Source: Octopus vulgaris
Taxonomy: Eukaryota
Reading direction: 5' to 3'
NCBI GenBank assembly: GCA_951406725.2
Contig: OX597815.1
Location: 34,720,001-34,784,000 of the forward strand
Length of the DNA stretch: 64,000 bases
Below, piece after piece: positions 31,781 to 41,226 of the stretch; position 1 is the first letter of the stretch, and every line of letters begins with the position of its first letter. The notes under the pieces were generated by a model. That model was not told where the DNA came from and did not search any database. It was given only the letters and a program-made list of their open reading frames with translations. Both the position numbers and the translations under genes were made by a program.

Positions 31781-32308
31781 TATATATATAATGTATATTT
31801 AAACATTAGTTCTTTCAGCCATTTATGCATCGTAATTAATGTAAATACATTGTTGAAAGGCAATTTACACTTGTTATTTGTCTGGACATAACATCTCTTA
31901 TGAATGTACTGTGTTTAAAAACAATACTTATCAGAGGGTGATAAACTGTGGCTAATGGGAATGCCAGATGTATTTCGGTCTTCATCATCTTTACCAATTG
32001 TATGTACTCAGAACTAAGTTGCATACATAGATTAGGTTTGTTGCCTCTGAGATATAAGAAACAATGAATATATATTCACTGATATTGTAAATTGTCACCC
32101 AGCTGAATAAAAATCTGTTTATCTGTAATGGAAGCAGTATTAAATCAGAATAGCCATCTATGTATCATACTTAATGTAAATGCATTTAGATAAAATTGTG
32201 TCCGATATTGATTTGAGTGACATTATTTGTTTGTCCATAATTCATAATTTTAACCATTATTTTTTCTTTCTTTCTCAACAGATTGTGAATATCGAAATAT
32301 TTAACAAG

Positions 32309-33048
32309 ATGTCATCCCCTACACCGTCCCAGAGTGACACAGGTACCAGTGGCTCAACATCTTCGGACAGTGAAATTAGCTTAGAATCTTGTTCTCCAGG
32401 CCTCAGCACAAAATGTCCAATTTGCCAGGAGACGTATACTATGCCCCGCGTCCTAAACTGCTTCCATACATTTTGTCAACCATGCATTGAAAAACAACAA
32501 GATAATCCCGAGAGAGTGATTTGTCCTGAATGCAACCATGAAACTTACCTTGGATCCCTTGGGGTTTCAGGTCTCATGCAAGATTACGCAGTAAGCAATA
32601 TCCTAGAAACCTCTGCTATCGATGCTAACGGTCTTCACTGCACTGGATGCAAGAGTAAAGATACTACTGCAGTTGCTAAGTGCTACGACTGTGCTAACTT
32701 TTTATGTGCTAACTGCGTGATGGCGCACCAGTTTATGCATTGTTTTGAGGGCCATCGGGTTCTCACATTTACCGAAGTACAAGGTGGAAAAGAAGAACTT
32801 CAGAGTGAAAAGCCAGTGGCTTGTCCACGGCACCGACACGAAGTGATTAAATTCTTCTGTAAAACATGCTCGGCACCAATTTGTAAAGAATGTACATTAT
32901 TTGAACACGGCCGAGGACACGAGTGCCATTTTATTTTGGATGTAAGTGACAAGCAAGTAGATATTCTTCGCCGTTTATCTGATGATGCCAAAGCCAAAGC
33001 ATCAGACTTACGCCAAATTGCTAAAGGAATTGAACACATTAACAGCAG
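32309..33048 (+). CDS. brat: TRIM-NHL brain tumor (Brat/NCL-1)-like protein, coding exon 1 (RING, B-box1, B-box2, start of coiled coil)
   Basis: Pyrimidine tract and CAG acceptor ending 32281; ATG at 32309 (AAGATGT). C3HC4 RING CPIC...CFHTFCQPC...CPEC, B-box1 CTGC...CYDCANFLCANCVMAHQFMHCFEGH, B-box2 CPRH...CKTC...CKEC...H. Donor AG|GTAAGT after 33048 (phase 2). The frame is open back to the acceptor, so an upstream coding exon is not excluded. Confidence 0.92.
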
Positions 33049-33081
33049 GTAAGTCAATTTATTGCTGTCTTAGGCTGCAAA

Positions 33082-33658
33082 TATTCCGTATTGGTGTAGT
33101 GGTAGAGCCAACCACAACCATATGCCAATACTGGCATAGCTAAGTTGTTCAGAAGTTTACTAGTAAACCATTTAATTTTGGGTTTGGTTCCATTGTGCAG
33201 CACCTTGGATCCTTGGATAAGTGTCTTCTACTATCGCCCCAGGCCAAGAAAGGCCTTTTGTGGTATTTAGTCGATGGAAACTGTAGGAAGCCTGTCGTGT
33301 GTATGCATGTGGATGTTCACCTTATGACTGGTTGTTCTGTACTTTCAGGAGAAATGAGGAATATAAAACTATTCTGTATTGGTGTAGTGGTAGAGCCAAC
33401 CATGACCATACGCCAATACTGGCATAGCTAAATTGTTCAGAAGTTTACTAGTGAATCATATAATTTTGGGTTTGGTTCCATTGTGCAGCACCTTGGATCC
33501 TTGGATAAGTGTCCTCTACTATAGTCCCAGGCCAAGAAAGGCCTTGTGTGGAAATTTAGTCGATGGAAACTGTAGGAAGCCTGTCGTGTGTATGCATGTG
33601 GATGTTCACCTTATGACTGGTTGTTCTGTACTTTCTGGAGAAACGAGGAATATAAAAC
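33082..33658 (+). repeat. Direct tandem duplication, 2 x ~288 bp, containing a degenerate SINE A head
   Basis: 33082-33369 and 33370-33658 align end to end at about 95% identity by eye. Confidence 0.93.
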
Positions 33659-36600
33659 TCCTTACTCGAAAACTAGTAAGCCTCAGAATAAGATCCCTGT
33701 TAAAACCCACTTTAGTACTGAAAAACAAAGTTAAAGAAACTGATAAATTGACTTCAGAGCAATAGTGCTATTGATTGGGCTGTTATACCTATAGCAGGAT
33801 AGTGACTATAGATTTGTGGTAATTATAGAGGTATTATAGAGGTAATTATGATGTTGTGTTGGTTGTAGTAGCAACTATAGAACTGGGCTTATTTTATTGC
33901 ATTGCGTATTGTGCAGTGTGACCTAATCATCTCAGGTTTGATCCCACTGCATAGGTGCTTTTTTTACTACAGCTTCAGATCAACCCCAAGACTTGTAGAG
34001 GAAATTGGGAAAATGGAAACTAGAAATATGTCAGGTAGACTATACCTGGAATTGAAGAATCCAGCTTTGTCACAAACTATGCCATGCTGATTCTGCCTTA
34101 GTAGTCTCTGAGTAGTTAAGGCTACATATGTCTGTGGAATACTCAGCCACTTACACAGTAAATAAGTGTATTGACCAACTGGACATTCATCATGCATGCA
34201 TTTCTGTATTGTCTGTAGAGTTGTAGTGATCAAAAAGCACAGTCTGTGCTCCTTATTTGTGTCACATTTGGTTATAAGTGTGACAGCTTCAGAAGTGCCC
34301 TATTGTTGCTATATTTCTAATGATAATACACACACATGCTTCATATAAATTCTGAAACAATTGTGAATTCATTGACTGGGTTTGTGAGTAGCTTTTCAAA
34401 TGGTTTTTACATTAATTCATAATAGAATTTGTCTCAGAACTGTTTTAATTACATCTAAGTTACAAGTAAAATCTGAAATATGAAACTTATGTAAATTATG
34501 TTTTAATGCTATTTATTATTAATTAGTTTGTTTTTATTATATTAAATTATTTTATATTATATTATATTATATTATATTATATTATTATACTATATTATAT
34601 TACTAACCCATGCCAGCATAGAAAACGGACATTAATGATTATGATAATGACAATGTAATTCATATCAAATTAGATTATTTTATTTAATTATCTTTATGGC
34701 AGAAATAGCTGCACTTTGTTCAGTTTGTGTTTTGCATAGCAACTTGTGCCACCTATTATTATATGCAAGACTAAAGTGGAACGAACAAATGTAAATAGTC
34801 AATAGGTTTTAAGTCCTGGAGATGACTGACTGAGTGGGTCTGGATACTTGTGAAAATTTTGTACTGGAAGTCATCACTTTTAATACCATTTACCTAACAT
34901 TGTTTACACATTTTGAAATTGAAACACCTGTCCCATGGTTCAAAGTCCGCCATGTGTTTTACTTTAATAGTTAATTTTATTTTATTTACTTTTCATCATC
35001 ATCTTCCATCATTTAACATCCATATTACATACTTGCATTTAAAAATTTAATTTTGAAGTTGCTGAAACTAAATTTTGATGGTTATATAATTCAACATTTA
35101 TAGAAAAAGCAGAACATTTTTTTTCAAAAATGTAACTTTTTTTTTTGTTGTTACATGGAAAACAAATATTCCCCAAGAAAGCCTAGAATTCCTAAACAAA
35201 AATATCAGATGATGTACAGCAAATGTTTGTCTAGTGAAATCACATGTTATCGCTAATGCAGTATGGGTAGTATTTACATAAATATTTTGATTTAAATATG
35301 AATAGGTAAATGCTGGGTGGTCTCCTGCAGGTTTGGTGTAGTATAATGACAGACAGGAGGGATTGAGTTGGTAACAAAAGAGTTAAAGGTCTAATGGCCT
35401 TATCCTATATTAGGACTATCCAATATCTGAAGTATATTTCCTTTCATGTTTGATGTATTATCTGCTTGTTTTTATGCAACTTTTGATACTTAAAAATTTC
35501 TTTACATTTAAAAGCACTTAATGCAAGTCATATATATTATTTTGGTTAATTTCCATTGAATTGACACACTTCAGACAATATCACAGTGTTGGCTAATAAG
35601 TAAATTTAACTGATTGTAAGATCACACTTATAGTTTTTTTTAAATTTATGTTTTAAGAGAAAAACTTAACTGAAGCACTAAGAACAAAAAGCAAATTTTA
35701 TGAGTTTCTGTTTTTAATTACAAGATAATGTAGATAATTTTATGTTCTACTTTATGTTAAAATGTTTTTGCTTTTGATATCCTTGTAATGAAGATTGCTA
35801 TTGTTGTTATTGGTTAGCCTTTTATGATAATTGATCAAATAAGATGTTTCAGCAGCATTTTAAAAACATACTCTTGTTTTCAGAAAGAGTAGTTTAAGAT
35901 TTTAGGCTTTTGGTAATGGCAAGAATTTAGTAATGGAGTAGTTTGACATGGCAGCATAGAAGCTTCCTTGTTGACTTGCACAAGTTCTTATTTTCCCTCT
36001 TAAATGATGGTATTAAAGCAAGTGTTTATGTCTTGTCTAAAGAAACAACTGAACACATTTCAAGAATTCGCAATCATCTCTTTTCATTATTGTTTTCAAT
36101 TAGAAAGCTCATTATTCATAGACATTATGGCACCTTTTGGATTTTATAGATGTAGAAGCTAATTGAGATTAGTTGAGTTGAACTTTAGTGCATTGTAGGA
36201 AACGAATAATTTTTGGTATGATATCTGTTTCATGGAAGTTTCAGAGAGAAGGAACAGAGGGTATTTAATGAAAAAGCAGAGAGGGAAGTAGAAGAGATGG
36301 ACTAGTTTTCTAGTGTTGTAGTGTGTTTGCTGTTAGTAATTTCTATAGAACTCAAGTTTGTTGTAGTTTTAGTAGAAAAACTGTAGGAGGATGCAATGAA
36401 GAATTAGAAATGTGAAAGGATGTTTAATGATCAGAGATGAATAAATTTAATCCTTGTTACTTTAACCAAAAATTTGCACTACATCCATCTTAATAACAAA
36501 AAAGAAAATGCTGTGAGACCTAGGTTGTTAACATAACTTCTGTTATGGCCTCGAGAGCTCTAATAAATAGGAAGTAACTGAGGATTGAATCTTAATGGAC

Positions 36601-37499
36601 TCCTATCTTTTTGACTAACCTCCTCATTGATCTCATTAGTAACTCACATTTTGTTCATAACCGCTCTGTACATGGTTTTCATCTTTACATAACATGATAC
36701 TCTGTTAAAAGCTTTCTCTAAATTGACAAGGTAGATGAGTTTATATCTTCACTAAGAACTTCTGTAGTTGTCTCAGTAGGAAGAATGCTTCAATGGCAGC
36801 CCCCAAATTGCATCTCATCTAAATTAATTCGTTTTACTAATCAGCTATGCTATGACTAAGTTACTTTCATGCCCTTGTCAATCAGTTTGAGGTGCCTTGA
36901 GTTGCTTCTTTCTAGAGCGCTTTCTTCGCCTCATGTAGCTGTTGACCTTGATTCAACTACACCATTCATTGAATAAATCTCCCTCTCTGCTTGATTAATT
37001 TAACTATATGCCTTGTAATTGTCCTAATTGAGACATTTTCTATCACCTGGCTGCTATTCCTGATACTCCAGCTACTTCTCTTGCCATTTGTATCCTTAAT
37101 TACATCTTCAATCTTGTATCAGTAGCTAGTGTCTCTCTTGTGTAGTCTCTCTTTCTGCTATTTATTCCCTTCACACAATAATGTCTAGTTGTAATATTTT
37201 CCATACCTCTCAGCATTATTGAGAGTTAAGTGCACCACTGTCACTTCACACTTTTCTCAAACAACATTTTGATTTGCACCGACACAGAACTCAACATATG
37301 CCAGAGTATCCATTATAGTGTCACCTTGCATGTCAGTGTAAAGTCACCAGCTAATGACAACGCAGTTGCTGTGATTTGTTATGGAAAAAGTCAGTAAGGG
37401 AACACATCTTAGAAATGGTTCTTTCACTCATCTGTCAATTGTACTTGTGATACATATGCAGAAATGATTACTCTGTACTTAATTATTCTGATGTCACAT

Positions 37500-37683
37500 A
37501 ATAAGCATCCAGTCTACACTGTAATGTGGTTGGCGTTTAGAAGGGCATCCAGCTGTAAAATCCCTGCAAAAACAGACACAGAAGCTTGGTGCAGGCTCCT
37601 TCCTGATCAACTCCTGTCAAACCATCCAATTCATATCAGCATAGAAGGCAGACTTTAAATGAAGATGATGATGATGATGATGA
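37500..37683 (+). mobile_element. Family C repeat
   Basis: GTGGTTGGCGTTTAGAAGGGCATCCAGCTGTAAAA followed by a (GAT)n tail. Confidence 0.75.
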
Positions 37684-38654
37684 GATATGCTCTCTCACTT
37701 CATCCATTCTCTAGCTACAATATGCCAACTCCACTCAGTCCAGTCATGTTACTCATCCAGAAAATTTGTACCTGTGTCCCATGAGAATTCTGGTTGAGTC
37801 TAACTTCCATTTTATCATTTGAAAACAGTGCACATTTACTTGTTTTCCACTCTAGTAACCCTGAAATCTTTGTAGAGCTTAATGCCTTTCATTACGCCAA
37901 CATTCTGGTAACCTTGAAGTTTTGCAATCCTGATACTGATGATGATGATGGCAGTGGTGGTGGTGGTGGCGGCAGCAGAAGTTGTTTGTCCATTTTCTGC
38001 ATTTGAAAAGAAGAGAGTTGTAGATTCATCATCATTAACTACCACCACTGCCACTACTACATATCACTGTGATCATCTTGCAGGAATTAATTTCATCTCC
38101 TAATTGAAATTCCTGAAAAATCAACTTTGCTTTTCATTTTCCTGGTGGAGTGGCTGTAAAAGATATACCAAGTAAACACTGTTTATAGGGTTAAATCACC
38201 TGTACTGTGTAATCATTTACCTAATGTGAAAACGCAATAATTGTTTTTCACCTATTTTCAAAATTTTCATCAAGGTTTCTGTCTTGGTGGAATTGGTTTA
38301 TGCAAATTGGAACATTTTAACAATACTTTTCCTTCCTTTAAATCTCTCAACTGCGAAGATTTAAGTGTGACAAAGTACTTAGCCAGACAGATTAAAAGCC
38401 GTCAAATGTCTCCTGCTTAAGGAAACAAATTATATAACGGCTTTAGTGAAATCATAATTTCAAGGGCTATTAACACCATCTTAAGAATATATATATACTT
38501 ACAGTATTTATCGTTACACTAGATTTTCTTTGGTGTGATCTTACTTAGCATCAGTTGTCTTGTTGCTTGGTGTATATGTACCTGATTCCAGACTAGAAAC
38601 TATTATTTCCAAAGCAAGGTTTGTAATGTCATTATGTGTATGTGTGTGTGTCTC

Positions 38655-38885
38655 ATCATCGTCATCATCATCATCATCATCATCCTTTAATGTCCATTTT
38701 CCATGCTGGCTCTGATCGGACACTTTGACCAGAGCAGGCAAGCCTGGAGAGCTGCACCAGGTTTCAGTCTGATTTGGCTTGGTTACTATGACCAGTTGCC
38801 CTTCTTAATACCAATCACTTTACAAAGTGTGCCTGGTACTTTTTAACATGGCACCAGCATGGGTGCTTTTACATGGAACTGGTAC
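38655..38885 (-). mobile_element. Family C repeat
   Basis: (CAT)n, TTTAATGTCCATTTTCCATGCTGG and TGCCCTTCTTAATACCAATCAC. Confidence 0.72.
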
Positions 38886-38994
38886 AAGGCTCTTGTAAGC
38901 CAATCCTCTTCAACAAGAGGAGCAGCATTATATAATTATACATACATACATATATATATATATATATTTAGTGTAGGAAGAATTCCTTTTTATT

Positions 38995-39080
38995 ATTTTC
39001 TACATATGTTTCAAAGGCTGCAAAGTCCCTAATTCGGATTGAATAAGGAGTCCATTTTGCAGCCTTCTCTTCAGGAAAAT
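38995..39080 (-). ncRNA. Type I hammerhead ribozyme motif, inverted copy
   Basis: Reverse-complement copy of 39303-39388 with identical core and stems I and III; the 3 differences lie in the distal part of stem II. Confidence 0.8.
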
Positions 39081-39302
39081 CCAGGAACTTAATTCTCCAA
39101 CAAAATGCACAGCAAGCTCTTCGACAAAACGCTCACGAGGAGCCCATGGAATAAATGGCACAAACTGTCTATCTATATGCGTTGACGCCAGGCTGGGTCA
39201 ACGCATATAGATAGACAGTTTGTGCCATTTATTCCATGGGCTCCTCGTGAGCGTTTTGTCGAAAAGCTTGCTGTGCATTTTGTTGGAGAATTAAGTTCCT
39301 GG

Positions 39303-39388
39303 ATTTTCCTGAAGAGAAGGCTGCAAAATAGACTCCTTATTCAATCTGAATTAGGGTCTTTGCAGCCTTTGAAACATATGTAGAAAAT
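39303..39388 (+). ncRNA. Type I hammerhead ribozyme motif (minimal stem III, long stem II), sense to brat
   Basis: Stem I ATTTTC (39303-08) with GAAAAT (39383-88); core CTGAAGA (39309-15); stem II GAAGGCTGCAAA (39316-27) with TTTGCAGCCTTT (39359-70); GAAA (39371-74); C-ATAT-G; GTA triplet with predicted cut after A39382. Confidence 0.82.
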
Positions 39389-39692
39389 AATAAAAAGGAA
39401 TTTTGTTAAATCTTCGTTCAGCTCCATTTCTTCCTACACTAAATATATAAAACTTCAAATTTCCGCACTAAGGCACGGATTTTAGGCCCCGTGGTCGTAA
39501 CCTCAACTGTGCTTTTTCTGTTGTGATTTTTGCTACCCAGGTATCGGTTATCTTTTGAATTATCCATAATAAGATAATTCATTTATCTACTTCAATATAT
39601 ATATCAACTCACACATAATGCCTTAATTCTCCACATCATTTGTTTATTTTGGTTTATGTCATTGTTCTTAAACATTTTTCTGTTGCCTTCAG

Positions 39693-41226
39693 ATTGCAAA
39701 TCCAGTATCAGAAAGCGCAAGAGGATATTACTGAAACGTATAACTTCTTCCGTGCTGTGATTGAAGAACGCAAGCAAGAAGTTCAAAGAGAGTTGGATCA
39801 AGTATTTAATGGTAAACAGATTGCTATTAGTACACTAGCACAGAAGATTCAAGAAAATATTGAGCGTATTTACCAAGGTTGCGATTTTATTGACAAACTA
39901 TTGAAACATGCCAGTTCTTCAGAAATTCTACTTTTTAAATCTTTCATTGAGCAGCGTTTTCAAAATGTCTTTAATTTTCAGCCAGATATCAACAATCAAA
40001 ATTACTACGATATGGAGTTCATCTCCAATTTTTCAGCTATTCAAGTTGGCATTCAAAATACATTTGGTTATGTTCGACAAAACAGTGAGTTCCAACCACA
40101 AACCACTCAGAAACCGCAGCCAATTGCTCGTCCTGCTAATGGCATAGTTGTTGGAAATACTCTAAACAATGGCCAGCTCTTTGAAACTTCTCCACGTCAG
40201 TTCTCTTCCACTAATAATTTTCAGTTTGGTGGAGGAACTGACAACAATATTTATGAGAAATGGTCCAGTGGGTTAGACATCTTTACGAATGGTATGGATA
40301 TATTCCCAACAAATTCCGACCCACTCTTAGATCTGACTTCCAAATTAATCAATACAGGTCTGCATAATTCCAAACAACAGATTAAACGACAAAAGATGAT
40401 TTATCATTGTAAGTTTGGTGAGTTTGGGACTCTTGATGGACAGTTCACCGAACCTAGCGGTGTGGCAGTTAATGCTCAGAATGATGTTATTGTTGCTGAT
40501 ACAAATAATCATCGGATTCAGATTTTTGATAAAGACGGTCGTTTTAAATTCCAGTTTGGGGAGTGTGGCAAACGAGATGGCCAGTTGCTCTATCCGAATC
40601 GAGTTGCTGTGGTCAGATCATCTGGAGACATAATTGTTACAGAACGCAGTCCTACACATCAAATACAGATTTATAACCAATATGGCCAATTTGTCCGTAA
40701 ATTTGGCGCTAACATTTTACAACATCCCCGTGGAGTTACAGTGGATAATAAAGGGCGTATTGTCATTGTGGAATGTAAAGTAATGCGTGTTATTATTTTT
40801 GACCAAATGGGAAATGTCTTGTACAAGTTTGGCTGCTCCCAGCACCTGGAATTTCCAAATGGTGTTGTTGTCAATGACAAAGAAGAAATTTTTATTAGTG
40901 ACAATCGTGCTCACTGTGTCAAAGTGTTTAATTACCAGGGGTTGTTTCTTCGTCAGATCGGTGGCGAAGGTGTCACTAACTATCCTATCGGAGTTGGTAT
41001 CAACTCTGCTGGTGAGGTTCTTATTGCTGATAATCACAATAATTTTAATCTAACCATTTTCACCCAGGACGGTCAGTTAGTTAATGCCTTGGAGAGCAAA
41101 GTGAAACATGCACAGTGTTTTGATGTGGCTCTTATGGACGATGGTTCTGTGGTGTTGGCCAGCAAAGATTACCGAGTCTACATTTACAGGTATGCTCCTC
41201 ACCATATTCCAGCCCTTGGAATGTGA
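39693..41226 (+). CDS. brat: Brat-like protein, coding exon 2 (coiled coil, linker, NHL beta-propeller, stop)
   Basis: Acceptor ttttctgttgccttcAG ending 39692; AG+A rebuilds an Arg codon in frame with exon 1. The C-terminal segment (KRQKMIYHCKFGEFG...FTEPSGVAVNAQND...SKDYRVYIYRY) closely resembles the Drosophila Brat NHL domain as I recall it. TGA at 41224-41226. Spliced CDS is 740+1534=2274 nt. Confidence 0.96.

What the first reader, a model, noticed from the sequence alone, without database searches (positions are those of the whole stretch)
38981..39402. Self-locking ribozyme cassette: a 206-bp hairpin could mask the intronic hammerhead on either strand
Seen: on either strand the antisense arm is transcribed before the ribozyme arm, so a ~98% perfect duplex can sequester the core. 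Inference: this may explain why a self-cleaving motif is tolerated in this intron, and it could act as a switch if editing, helicases or transcription kinetics open the duplex. The regulatory role is speculative; a neutral insertion is the null hypothesis.
Basis: partly seen in the sequence, partly recalled or inferred. Interest (0 to 1): 0.75.

Follow-up and report, generated by a model that had tools for sequence, protein, structure and literature searches.

The report
Penelope transposon hairpin in brat intron
The hairpin is two back-to-back, shortened copies of the end repeat of a common Penelope-type jumping gene lying in a predicted intron of a brat-like gene; it would mask the element's likely weak self-cutting RNA motif, but the same layout recurs at many other places in this genome, so it is most likely a by-product of how the element inserts and not a switch built for this gene.

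Summary
The 206-bp, 98% hairpin and a type I hammerhead motif in each arm are real. The unit is larger than reported: 38961-39604 is one insertion of a Penelope-like retrotransposon (Hydra-clade-like motifs) into a TA repeat in the predicted 6.6-kb intron of a brat-like gene. It consists of two head-to-head, 5'-truncated end-repeat copies, one ending at element site 253 and one at 408. This is the family's usual footprint: 46 of 83 sampled loci are such pairs, 43 of 47 junctions join a 253 end to a 408 end, and paired arms share rare variants. Priming from both target strands at two fixed RNA sites fits best. Masking is thermodynamically sound (about 100 kcal/mol). It is probably not needed: the motif is a weak, dimer-type hammerhead, and 60 of 81 hammerhead-bearing loci lack a full antisense copy. 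No evidence of co-option; reads did not confirm the junction. Inverted end repeats and opposite-strand hammerheads are in print, and this scan reached the two-site reading earlier on other DNA of this genome. New member of a known kind; low interest.

The parts
38961..39604 (.). Whole insertion: head-to-head pair of 5'-truncated Penelope-like end repeats (pLTR) in a TA repeat
38961..39198 (-). Left arm: element positions about -12 to 253 (position 1 = 39197 in the right arm), ending at the short 3' site; 27-nt deletion (equivalent of 39403-39429); 1 private substitution (39119)
39197..39604 (+). Right arm: element positions 1-408, ending at the long 3' site; 3 private substitutions inside the paired part (39330, 39347, 39357), none in the core
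39185..39200 (.). Junction at a native quasi-palindrome; 2-nt overlap of the arms at 39197-98
39303..39388 (+). Type I hammerhead, sense to host gene; core intact; long helix II; palindromic 8-nt helix III; predicted cut after 39382
38995..39080 (-). Mirror hammerhead on the antisense strand, core intact
39450..39604 (+). 155-nt 'tail' between the two fixed 3' ends; part of the element's 5' UTR
39538..39546 (+). Putative splice donor of the element's own 5'-UTR intron (GT at 39541), sense to the host, 152 nt before the host acceptor
   Evidence: use untested
38939..38966 (.). Left part of the (TACA)n/(TA)n target repeat
32180..33048 (+). Open frame holding the host exon with RING and B-box domains; donor after 33048
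33049..39692 (+). Predicted 6,644-nt phase-2 host intron
   Evidence: inferred from in-frame splice sites
39693..41223 (+). Host exon: coiled-coil region and Brat-like NHL domain
   Evidence: Drosophila Brat NHL, E 2.7e-174

Best explanation
The hairpin is two head-to-head, 5'-truncated copies of the end repeat of a Penelope-like retrotransposon inserted in a TA repeat, likely made when reverse transcription was primed from both cut strands of the target at two fixed sites of the element's RNA, and it is likely neutral for the host gene. Shown: family identity, copy number, the two fixed 3' ends, TA flanks, the shared origin of paired arms and the intact hammerhead core. Inferred steps: the element's GIY-YIG nuclease nicks both strands of the TA repeat; one nick primes at site 253 and the other at site 408 on an unspliced transcript of one source element; the two cDNAs stop independently and are joined through short homology (here a native quasi-palindrome); later drift added 4 substitutions and a 27-nt deletion. 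In host pre-mRNA the arms would form a long duplex that masks a hammerhead predicted to be nearly inactive as a monomer anyway, and the duplex is a likely ADAR substrate. The hammerhead is kept by selection on the transposon family, not on this locus.
For: 39 other places match 39197-39604 at 94-98% among 40 candidates scored of 3031; a 21-nt core pattern has 275 exact matches, control 0. Longer copies carry an RT plus C-terminal GIY-YIG-like ORF with DKT, LYRDD, CxxC and CxH motifs; its nearest Atlas clusters carry HTH_animal, GIY-YIG and RVT_1 on a minority of members. The repeat runs on into the ORF start in full-length copies such as L140-L142. The first 100 of the 275 matches make 84 loci; 83 could be analysed. 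46 of 83 are head-to-head pairs; 43 of 47 junctions join a 253 end to a 408 end (42 plus this locus), none joins 408 to 408 (p 3e-9 against independent ends). A sister family shows one short and one long end in 5 of 5 pairs (read by eye). In 13 of 47 junctions the arms do not overlap, and in 26 of 45 mixed pairs the short-end arm reaches further 5', which fold-back copying cannot give. Paired arms share minority variants at 0.72% per base against 0.11% in permuted pairs (27 pairs; 0 of 2000 permutations as high). Outer flanks are TA repeats in nearly all pairs. Two RT start sites defining the tail, and cutting of both strands, were shown in vitro for an anole PLE (PMC11167929).
Against: This locus's junction is a quasi-palindrome, the feature on which the published self-priming model rests (PMC3846280), and 20 of 47 junctions have one arm nested in the other. 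The tail is 155 nt, not the 30-40 nt in print. The query ORF had no Pfam hit of its own and the profile matched no solved structure, so the RT call rests on motifs and homologs. The sample was selected by an exact hammerhead 21-mer, covers only contigs C1-C7, and 10 solo loci are copies of one insertion. Neutrality is not shown: no population, cross-species or RNA data were obtained.
Confidence: 0.85

Rival explanations
1. Survivor effect without regulation: the hairpin arose by transposition, but this sense-strand intronic copy persisted because the antisense arm silences a hammerhead that would otherwise harm the transcript.
For: Locking cost about 103 kcal/mol; core intact; retrozymes reported excluded from introns (10.64898/2026.07.22.740005 abstract); a fast ribozyme aborts splicing (PMC2995048 citing Fong 2009).
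Against: Predicted active-monomer fraction 3e-4 and helix III pairing about 0.04 without any lock; single minimal PLE hammerheads showed no detectable cleavage (PMC4209133); slower hammerhead cleavage allowed splicing; 20 of 83 loci have this doubly locked form by insertion mechanics alone.
Confidence: 0.12
2. The inverted arm was made by fold-back self-priming at the native quasi-palindrome (single template copied back on itself), as proposed for rotifer Penelope elements.
For: Quasi-palindromic junction here; near-symmetric junctions at L051, L094, L095, L101; arms share a source; published model (PMC3846280).
Against: The arms end at two different fixed sites; 13 of 47 junctions have non-overlapping arms; in 26 of 45 mixed pairs the short-end arm reaches further 5'.
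Confidence: 0.15
3. Co-opted regulatory cassette: editing, helicases or the element's own promoter open or bypass the duplex, so that cleavage or an alternative first exon tunes the brat-like gene.
For: Duplex in a predicted brat intron; a sense donor 152 nt before the host acceptor and an in-frame Met at 40012 upstream of the NHL domain; the Penelope pLTR can drive downstream exons (PMC2377424 discussion); young repeats are main ADAR targets (PMC9989829 passages).
Against: Young generic insertion like many others; no locus-specific change that points to function; editing would have to remove about 100 kcal/mol and would itself hit core adenosines (inference); no RNA evidence.
Confidence: 0.05
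4. Assembly fold-back artefact.
For: Long near-perfect palindrome in a repeat-rich intron; such structures trouble assemblies (PMC8557442).
Against: Arms differ by 4 substitutions (1 left-private, 3 right-private against the family) and a 27-nt deletion, have different outer flanks, and follow the 253/408 rule seen at 42 other junctions.
Confidence: 0.03

Closest known systems
Hydra-clade C-terminal EN+ Penelope-like elements (Craig et al. 2021, PMC8557442)
   Same: RT followed by C-terminal GIY-YIG-like domain; DKT motif; no CCHH; CxxC and CxH near the C-terminus; hammerhead in the end repeat; (TA)n targets; inverted 5'-truncated copy with a tail at one end.
   Different: RW is followed by F/L rather than K; the CxCX5C linker finger is absent and replaced by an Asn-rich linker although TA targeting is kept; tail of 155 nt rather than 30-40 nt; no tree was built.
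Minimal/atypical PLE hammerheads (Cervera and de la Pena 2014, PMC4209133)
   Same: Type I, large helix II, small palindromic helix III suited to dimers; dual motifs 100-700 bp apart on opposite strands already noted in Schistosoma; mostly truncated dispersed copies.
   Different: Helix II is longer (about 12 bp plus a distal stem); G10.1 pairs with U in this family and with C in most sister-family copies; activity untested here.
Poseidon PAc of the green anole (Frangieh et al. 2024, PMC11167929)
   Same: Two internal 3' ends that define the tail; AT-rich targets; both strands cut; hammerhead in the pLTR, which cleaved only with the element's protein.
   Different: Different clade; sites here lie in the 5' UTR 155 nt apart. 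The main text does not state that inverted pairs always join one end of each kind (supplement not read).
Rotifer and Drosophila Penelope inverted pLTRs (PMC3846280, PMC2377424)
   Same: Head-to-head inverted pLTR, tail on one arm, palindromic or microhomology junctions, promoter and short intron in the pLTR/5' UTR.
   Different: Those authors favour self-priming on an antisense template; the census here favours two target-primed cDNAs.
Metazoan non-LTR retrozymes (PMC7229834; 10.64898/2026.07.22.740005)
   Same: Type I hammerhead, Penelope connection.
   Different: No tandem units here; this is the end repeat of a coding element.

Membership tests
EN+ Penelope-like element | Single ORF with RT and C-terminal GIY-YIG nuclease | tested here: met
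   Long ORFs in L021/L026 with RT-like and AIY..YIG motifs; Atlas neighbours with GIY-YIG/RVT_1 on a minority of members. No direct Pfam or PDB hit.
EN+ Penelope-like element | Pseudo-LTR: same repeat after the ORF and before the next ORF start | tested here: met
   Repeat follows the stop codon and runs into the ATG in L140, L141, L142, L145, L148.
EN+ Penelope-like element | 5' truncation, inverted 5' copy, tail at one end | tested here: met
   46 of 83 loci paired; 43 of 47 junctions 253/408.
EN+ Penelope-like element | Hammerhead in the pLTR | tested here: met
EN+ Penelope-like element | RT groups with PLE/telomerase RTs in a tree | not tested
   No named reference PLE sequences were available from the tools; no tree built.
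Hydra clade | DKT motif; no CCHH; CxxC and CxH at the nuclease end; (TA)n targets | tested here: met
   Searches (motifs in L026; absence of CCHH read from the printed GIY-YIG stretch; flanks), criteria
Hydra clade | RWK motif | tested here: inconclusive
   RWF in L116 and RWL in L092; 24 of 38 aligned proteins have RWK or RWF.
Hydra clade | CxCX5C linker motif | tested here: not met
   Absent in L026, present in 29 of 38 aligned proteins. Filed as Hydra-like, not as a confirmed member.
Type I hammerhead ribozyme | CUGANGA / GAAA / UH core with helices I-III | tested here: met
   84% of cells paired, 10 of 22 pairs with two-sided change, 0 of 500 shuffles as high (only 8 related sequences, structure drawn from the window copy).
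Type I hammerhead ribozyme | Self-cleavage | not testable with these tools
   Folding predicts a poor monomer.
Non-LTR retrozyme | Tandem non-coding units each with a hammerhead | tested here: not met
   No second direct copy in the window; linked to a coding element.
Domesticated intronic ribozyme / regulatory switch | Locus-specific conservation and effect on host RNA | not testable with these tools
   No relatives held for G000; no RNA run was laid.

The most novel reading that the evidence does not exclude
The insertion gives the brat-like gene a second start. The element's own promoter in the right arm (5' ends of copies pile up near element positions 20-45, about 39216-39241) fires downstream of the antisense arm, so its RNA escapes the lock, carries a free hammerhead, and splices from the element's donor (39540) to the host acceptor (39693) to encode an NHL-only Brat from Met 40012, while read-through pre-mRNA stays locked.
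Probability: 0.05. Interest if true: 0.7.

Novelty: new member of a known kind. Interest (0 to 1): 0.27.

Why it matters
As a regulatory switch it probably does not matter. Its value is as one data point on how Penelope-like elements form inverted repeats, a step that the field calls undefined (PMC8557442). The strict pairing of a 253 end with a 408 end, the non-overlapping arms and the shared variants argue for priming from both target strands at two fixed RNA sites rather than self-priming, and this is testable with the existing in-vitro system. It also means that this genome likely holds hundreds of ready-made long duplexes that could feed ADAR editing. If the novel case held, it would be a transposon-made NHL-only isoform of a neural stem-cell regulator (the role of Brat is recalled, not from a call).

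Tried and rejected
Rfam, whole window at gathering threshold: 0 matches. Pfam on the element ORF: no relevant family (among 38 aligned proteins RVT_1 and GIY-YIG each hit 1 member). PDB sequence searches with the ORF and its profile: only low-complexity matches or none. Sequencing runs: no RNA holder listed; no RNA-guessed run was laid, as both lay calls went to DNA or unlabelled runs. Contigs of X2, X3, X4, X6 laid on 38700-39800 were swamped by other copies. Contigs of X3, X4 and X6 cover 39595-39800 with 7 unmatched letters before, which fits an empty site or a longer TA run equally. On 39166-39228 no contig of X1-X4 crossed the central junction; all pieces stopped at 39198 or began at 39197. 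These are holes in contigs of other individuals or species and prove nothing, so the junction stays unconfirmed by reads. One search used a mis-indexed structure string and is void; one search replaces it. The sigma-70 promoter scan does not apply to an animal. Test of purifying selection on the core at this locus: rejected, 4 substitutions give no power; 93 of 102 intact cores is biased by the search pattern. Test of sense-intron enrichment of locked copies: not possible without gene annotation. L040 was dropped (no hit at 85%), so counts are of 83 of 84 loci. Search of earlier findings by sequence gave one unrelated hit. Paper searches: 'Penelope + twin priming + inverted' gave 2 listings, neither on PLE mechanism by title or abstract start; 'octopus + hammerhead ribozyme' gave 4 listings, none on this element by title. 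Supplements of PMC8557442 and PMC11167929 were not read and may list octopus Hydra families or show the end-pairing rule.

Full report
Observation. The inverted repeat is as reported: arms 38981-39186 and 39197-39402, 206 nt, 98% complementary, 10 nt apart, with four mismatches. Each arm holds a type I hammerhead with an intact core, at 39303-39388 on the + strand and 39080-38995 on the - strand; my scan found no other in the window. Rfam gave no match at gathering threshold. An alignment of both arms with six copies from sister families supports the fold: 84% of cells paired, 10 of 22 pairs with two-sided changes, 0 of 500 shuffles as high, slid controls 36-49%. Only eight related sequences went in and I drew the structure from the window copy. 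Helix III is an 8-nt palindrome whose centre changes from UA to CG between families while staying palindromic.

Host. An exon with RING and B-box domains ends at 33048 and an exon with a Brat-like NHL domain starts at 39693. The two join in frame, which gives a predicted 6,644-nt intron. The insertion stops 88 nt before the acceptor, leaving the pyrimidine tract intact.

What it is. 39197-39604 matches 39 other places at 94-98% among 40 candidates scored of 3031. A 21-nt core pattern has 275 exact matches and a sister-family pattern 1,974, both controls 0. [quoted passage not shown] In full-length copies the repeat also runs into the ORF's ATG through a putative intron of about 70 nt. That is a pseudo-LTR. 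The ORF had no Pfam or PDB hit of its own, but 63 homologs were found and its motifs (DKT, no CCHH, CxxC, CxH) match the Hydra clade as described in PMC8557442 section 11. The CxCX5C linker is missing, so I call it Hydra-like. Against intact copies, the left arm runs from about 38961 to 39198 with a 27-nt deletion, the 'loop' is native left-arm sequence, and the right arm runs to 39604. Both outer ends meet TA repeat.

Census. The first 100 of the 275 matches form 84 loci on contigs C1-C7; 83 gave usable hits. 46 of 83 are head-to-head pairs, with 47 junctions (one locus is doubled). 42 join an arm ending at element position 253 to one ending at 408; this locus is a 43rd once its deletion is allowed for; two have a shortened long end (392, 359); two have a tiny second piece; none is 408/408 (p 3e-9 against independent ends). 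In a sister family 5 of 5 pairs have one short and one long end (by eye). Twenty of 83 loci have a full hammerhead on both arms head to head, like this one. Of 81 loci with a full hammerhead arm, 60 have it on one strand only, ten of them being copies of one insertion inside a larger repeat. Paired arms share minority variants at 0.72% per base against 0.11% in permuted pairs, and differ at 1.4% against 2.7% (27 pairs, 0 of 2000 permutations). This locus, at 1.9%, lies within the 0-6% range of that set.

Mechanism of formation. Frangieh et al. showed in vitro that an anole PLE protein cuts both strands of AT-rich DNA and starts reverse transcription at two internal RNA sites that define the tail (PMC11167929, main text read). 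The census fits priming from both nicks, one at each site, on RNA from one source, with the two cDNAs joined by short homology. The published alternative, self-priming at palindromes (PMC3846280, passages), fits this locus's quasi-palindromic junction and the 20 nested junctions. It does not fit the 13 of 47 junctions with non-overlapping arms or the 26 of 45 mixed pairs where the short-end arm reaches further 5'. Site 408 lies inside the putative intron, so the template would be unspliced. These steps are inferred. I reached this reading; the look-up showed that follow-up agents had proposed two-site priming for other repeats in this genome. Those notes are unchecked and are not independent support.

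The lock. In read-through RNA the cassette folds at -423 kcal/mol, and forcing the right hammerhead active gives -320, so masking would be essentially complete once the right arm is made. Alone, however, the motif's active monomer fold is 3.5 kcal/mol above the minimum, with predicted fraction 3e-4, while helix III can pair between two molecules at -9 kcal/mol. Cervera and de la Pena found no cleavage by a single minimal PLE hammerhead and low cleavage by dimers, and already noted dual motifs 100-700 bp apart on opposite strands (PMC4209133, results and discussion read). The anole motif cleaved only with the element's protein. Intron cleavage by a hammerhead allowed splicing, while a fast ribozyme did not (PMC2995048, passages citing Dye 2006 and Fong 2009). 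So tolerance needs no lock. On the other side, a preprint reports exclusion of retrozymes from introns (10.64898/2026.07.22.740005, abstract, introduction and part of methods read), some monomeric invertebrate retrozyme hammerheads cleave well (PMC7229834, passages), and I could not test intron enrichment. The duplex is a likely ADAR target, as young repeats are generally (PMC9989829, passages), but no RNA was examined.

A gap in the lock. The Penelope promoter lies in the pseudo-LTR and can drive downstream exons (PMC2377424, abstract and discussion). Here 30 of 130 arms have their 5' end at positions 20-45, against 9 and 5 in the next two windows of equal size, which may mark a start site. 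RNA started there would lack the antisense arm, and the element's donor at 39540 faces the host acceptor 152 nt away, with an in-frame Met at 40012 before the NHL domain. This is the most novel reading left open; nothing supports its use.

Artefact. Unequal arms, a one-sided deletion, different flanks and obedience to the family rule make a fold-back artefact unlikely. The read checks were uninformative and are listed under Tried and rejected.

Verdict. Real, ordinary for this genome: a new member of a known kind. Best explanation 0.85; interest 0.27. Supplements of the cited papers were not read and may already show the end-pairing rule or list this family.

Noticed in passing
L021, L022, L025-L028 ORFs; L026:1620-4250:-: The family targets TA repeats although its protein lacks the CxCX5C linker finger that PMC8557442 associates with TA targeting; an Asn-rich linker stands in its place.
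   Followed up: partly
element positions 20-45 (window about 39216-39241): 5' ends of copies pile up here (30 of 130 arms), possibly the element's transcription start.
   Followed up: partly
L034, L058, L060, L063, L073, L097, L099, L109, L112, L113: Ten solo copies with the same extent (-280 to 253) share flanks: one insertion amplified inside a larger, unidentified repeat of at least 2 kb.
   Followed up: partly
L089:752-2007: A whole head-to-head pair is itself duplicated as a larger palindrome.
   Followed up: no
L094:1200-1222: Junction filled by a palindromic A-run/T-run of about 21 nt between two arms that both start at position 32.
   Followed up: no
G000:C1:119514367-119525313: Four sister-family hammerheads in tandem at 3,624-nt spacing, likely a head-to-tail array of full elements.
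   Followed up: no
L022 and L026 (C1:206.35 Mb and C1:205.72 Mb): About 8 kb shared at 98% in opposite orientation, a segmental duplication or assembly duplicate.
   Followed up: no
window 33070-33650: A direct duplication of roughly 290 nt, seen by eye, just after the host donor site.
   Followed up: no
window 37611-37683 and 38662-38734: Two short interspersed repeat copies in opposite orientation (73%) in the same intron could form a second, weaker duplex.
   Followed up: no
window 32180-41223: The brat-like gene has an N-terminal RING domain; Drosophila Brat lacks one (recalled, not from a call).
   Followed up: no
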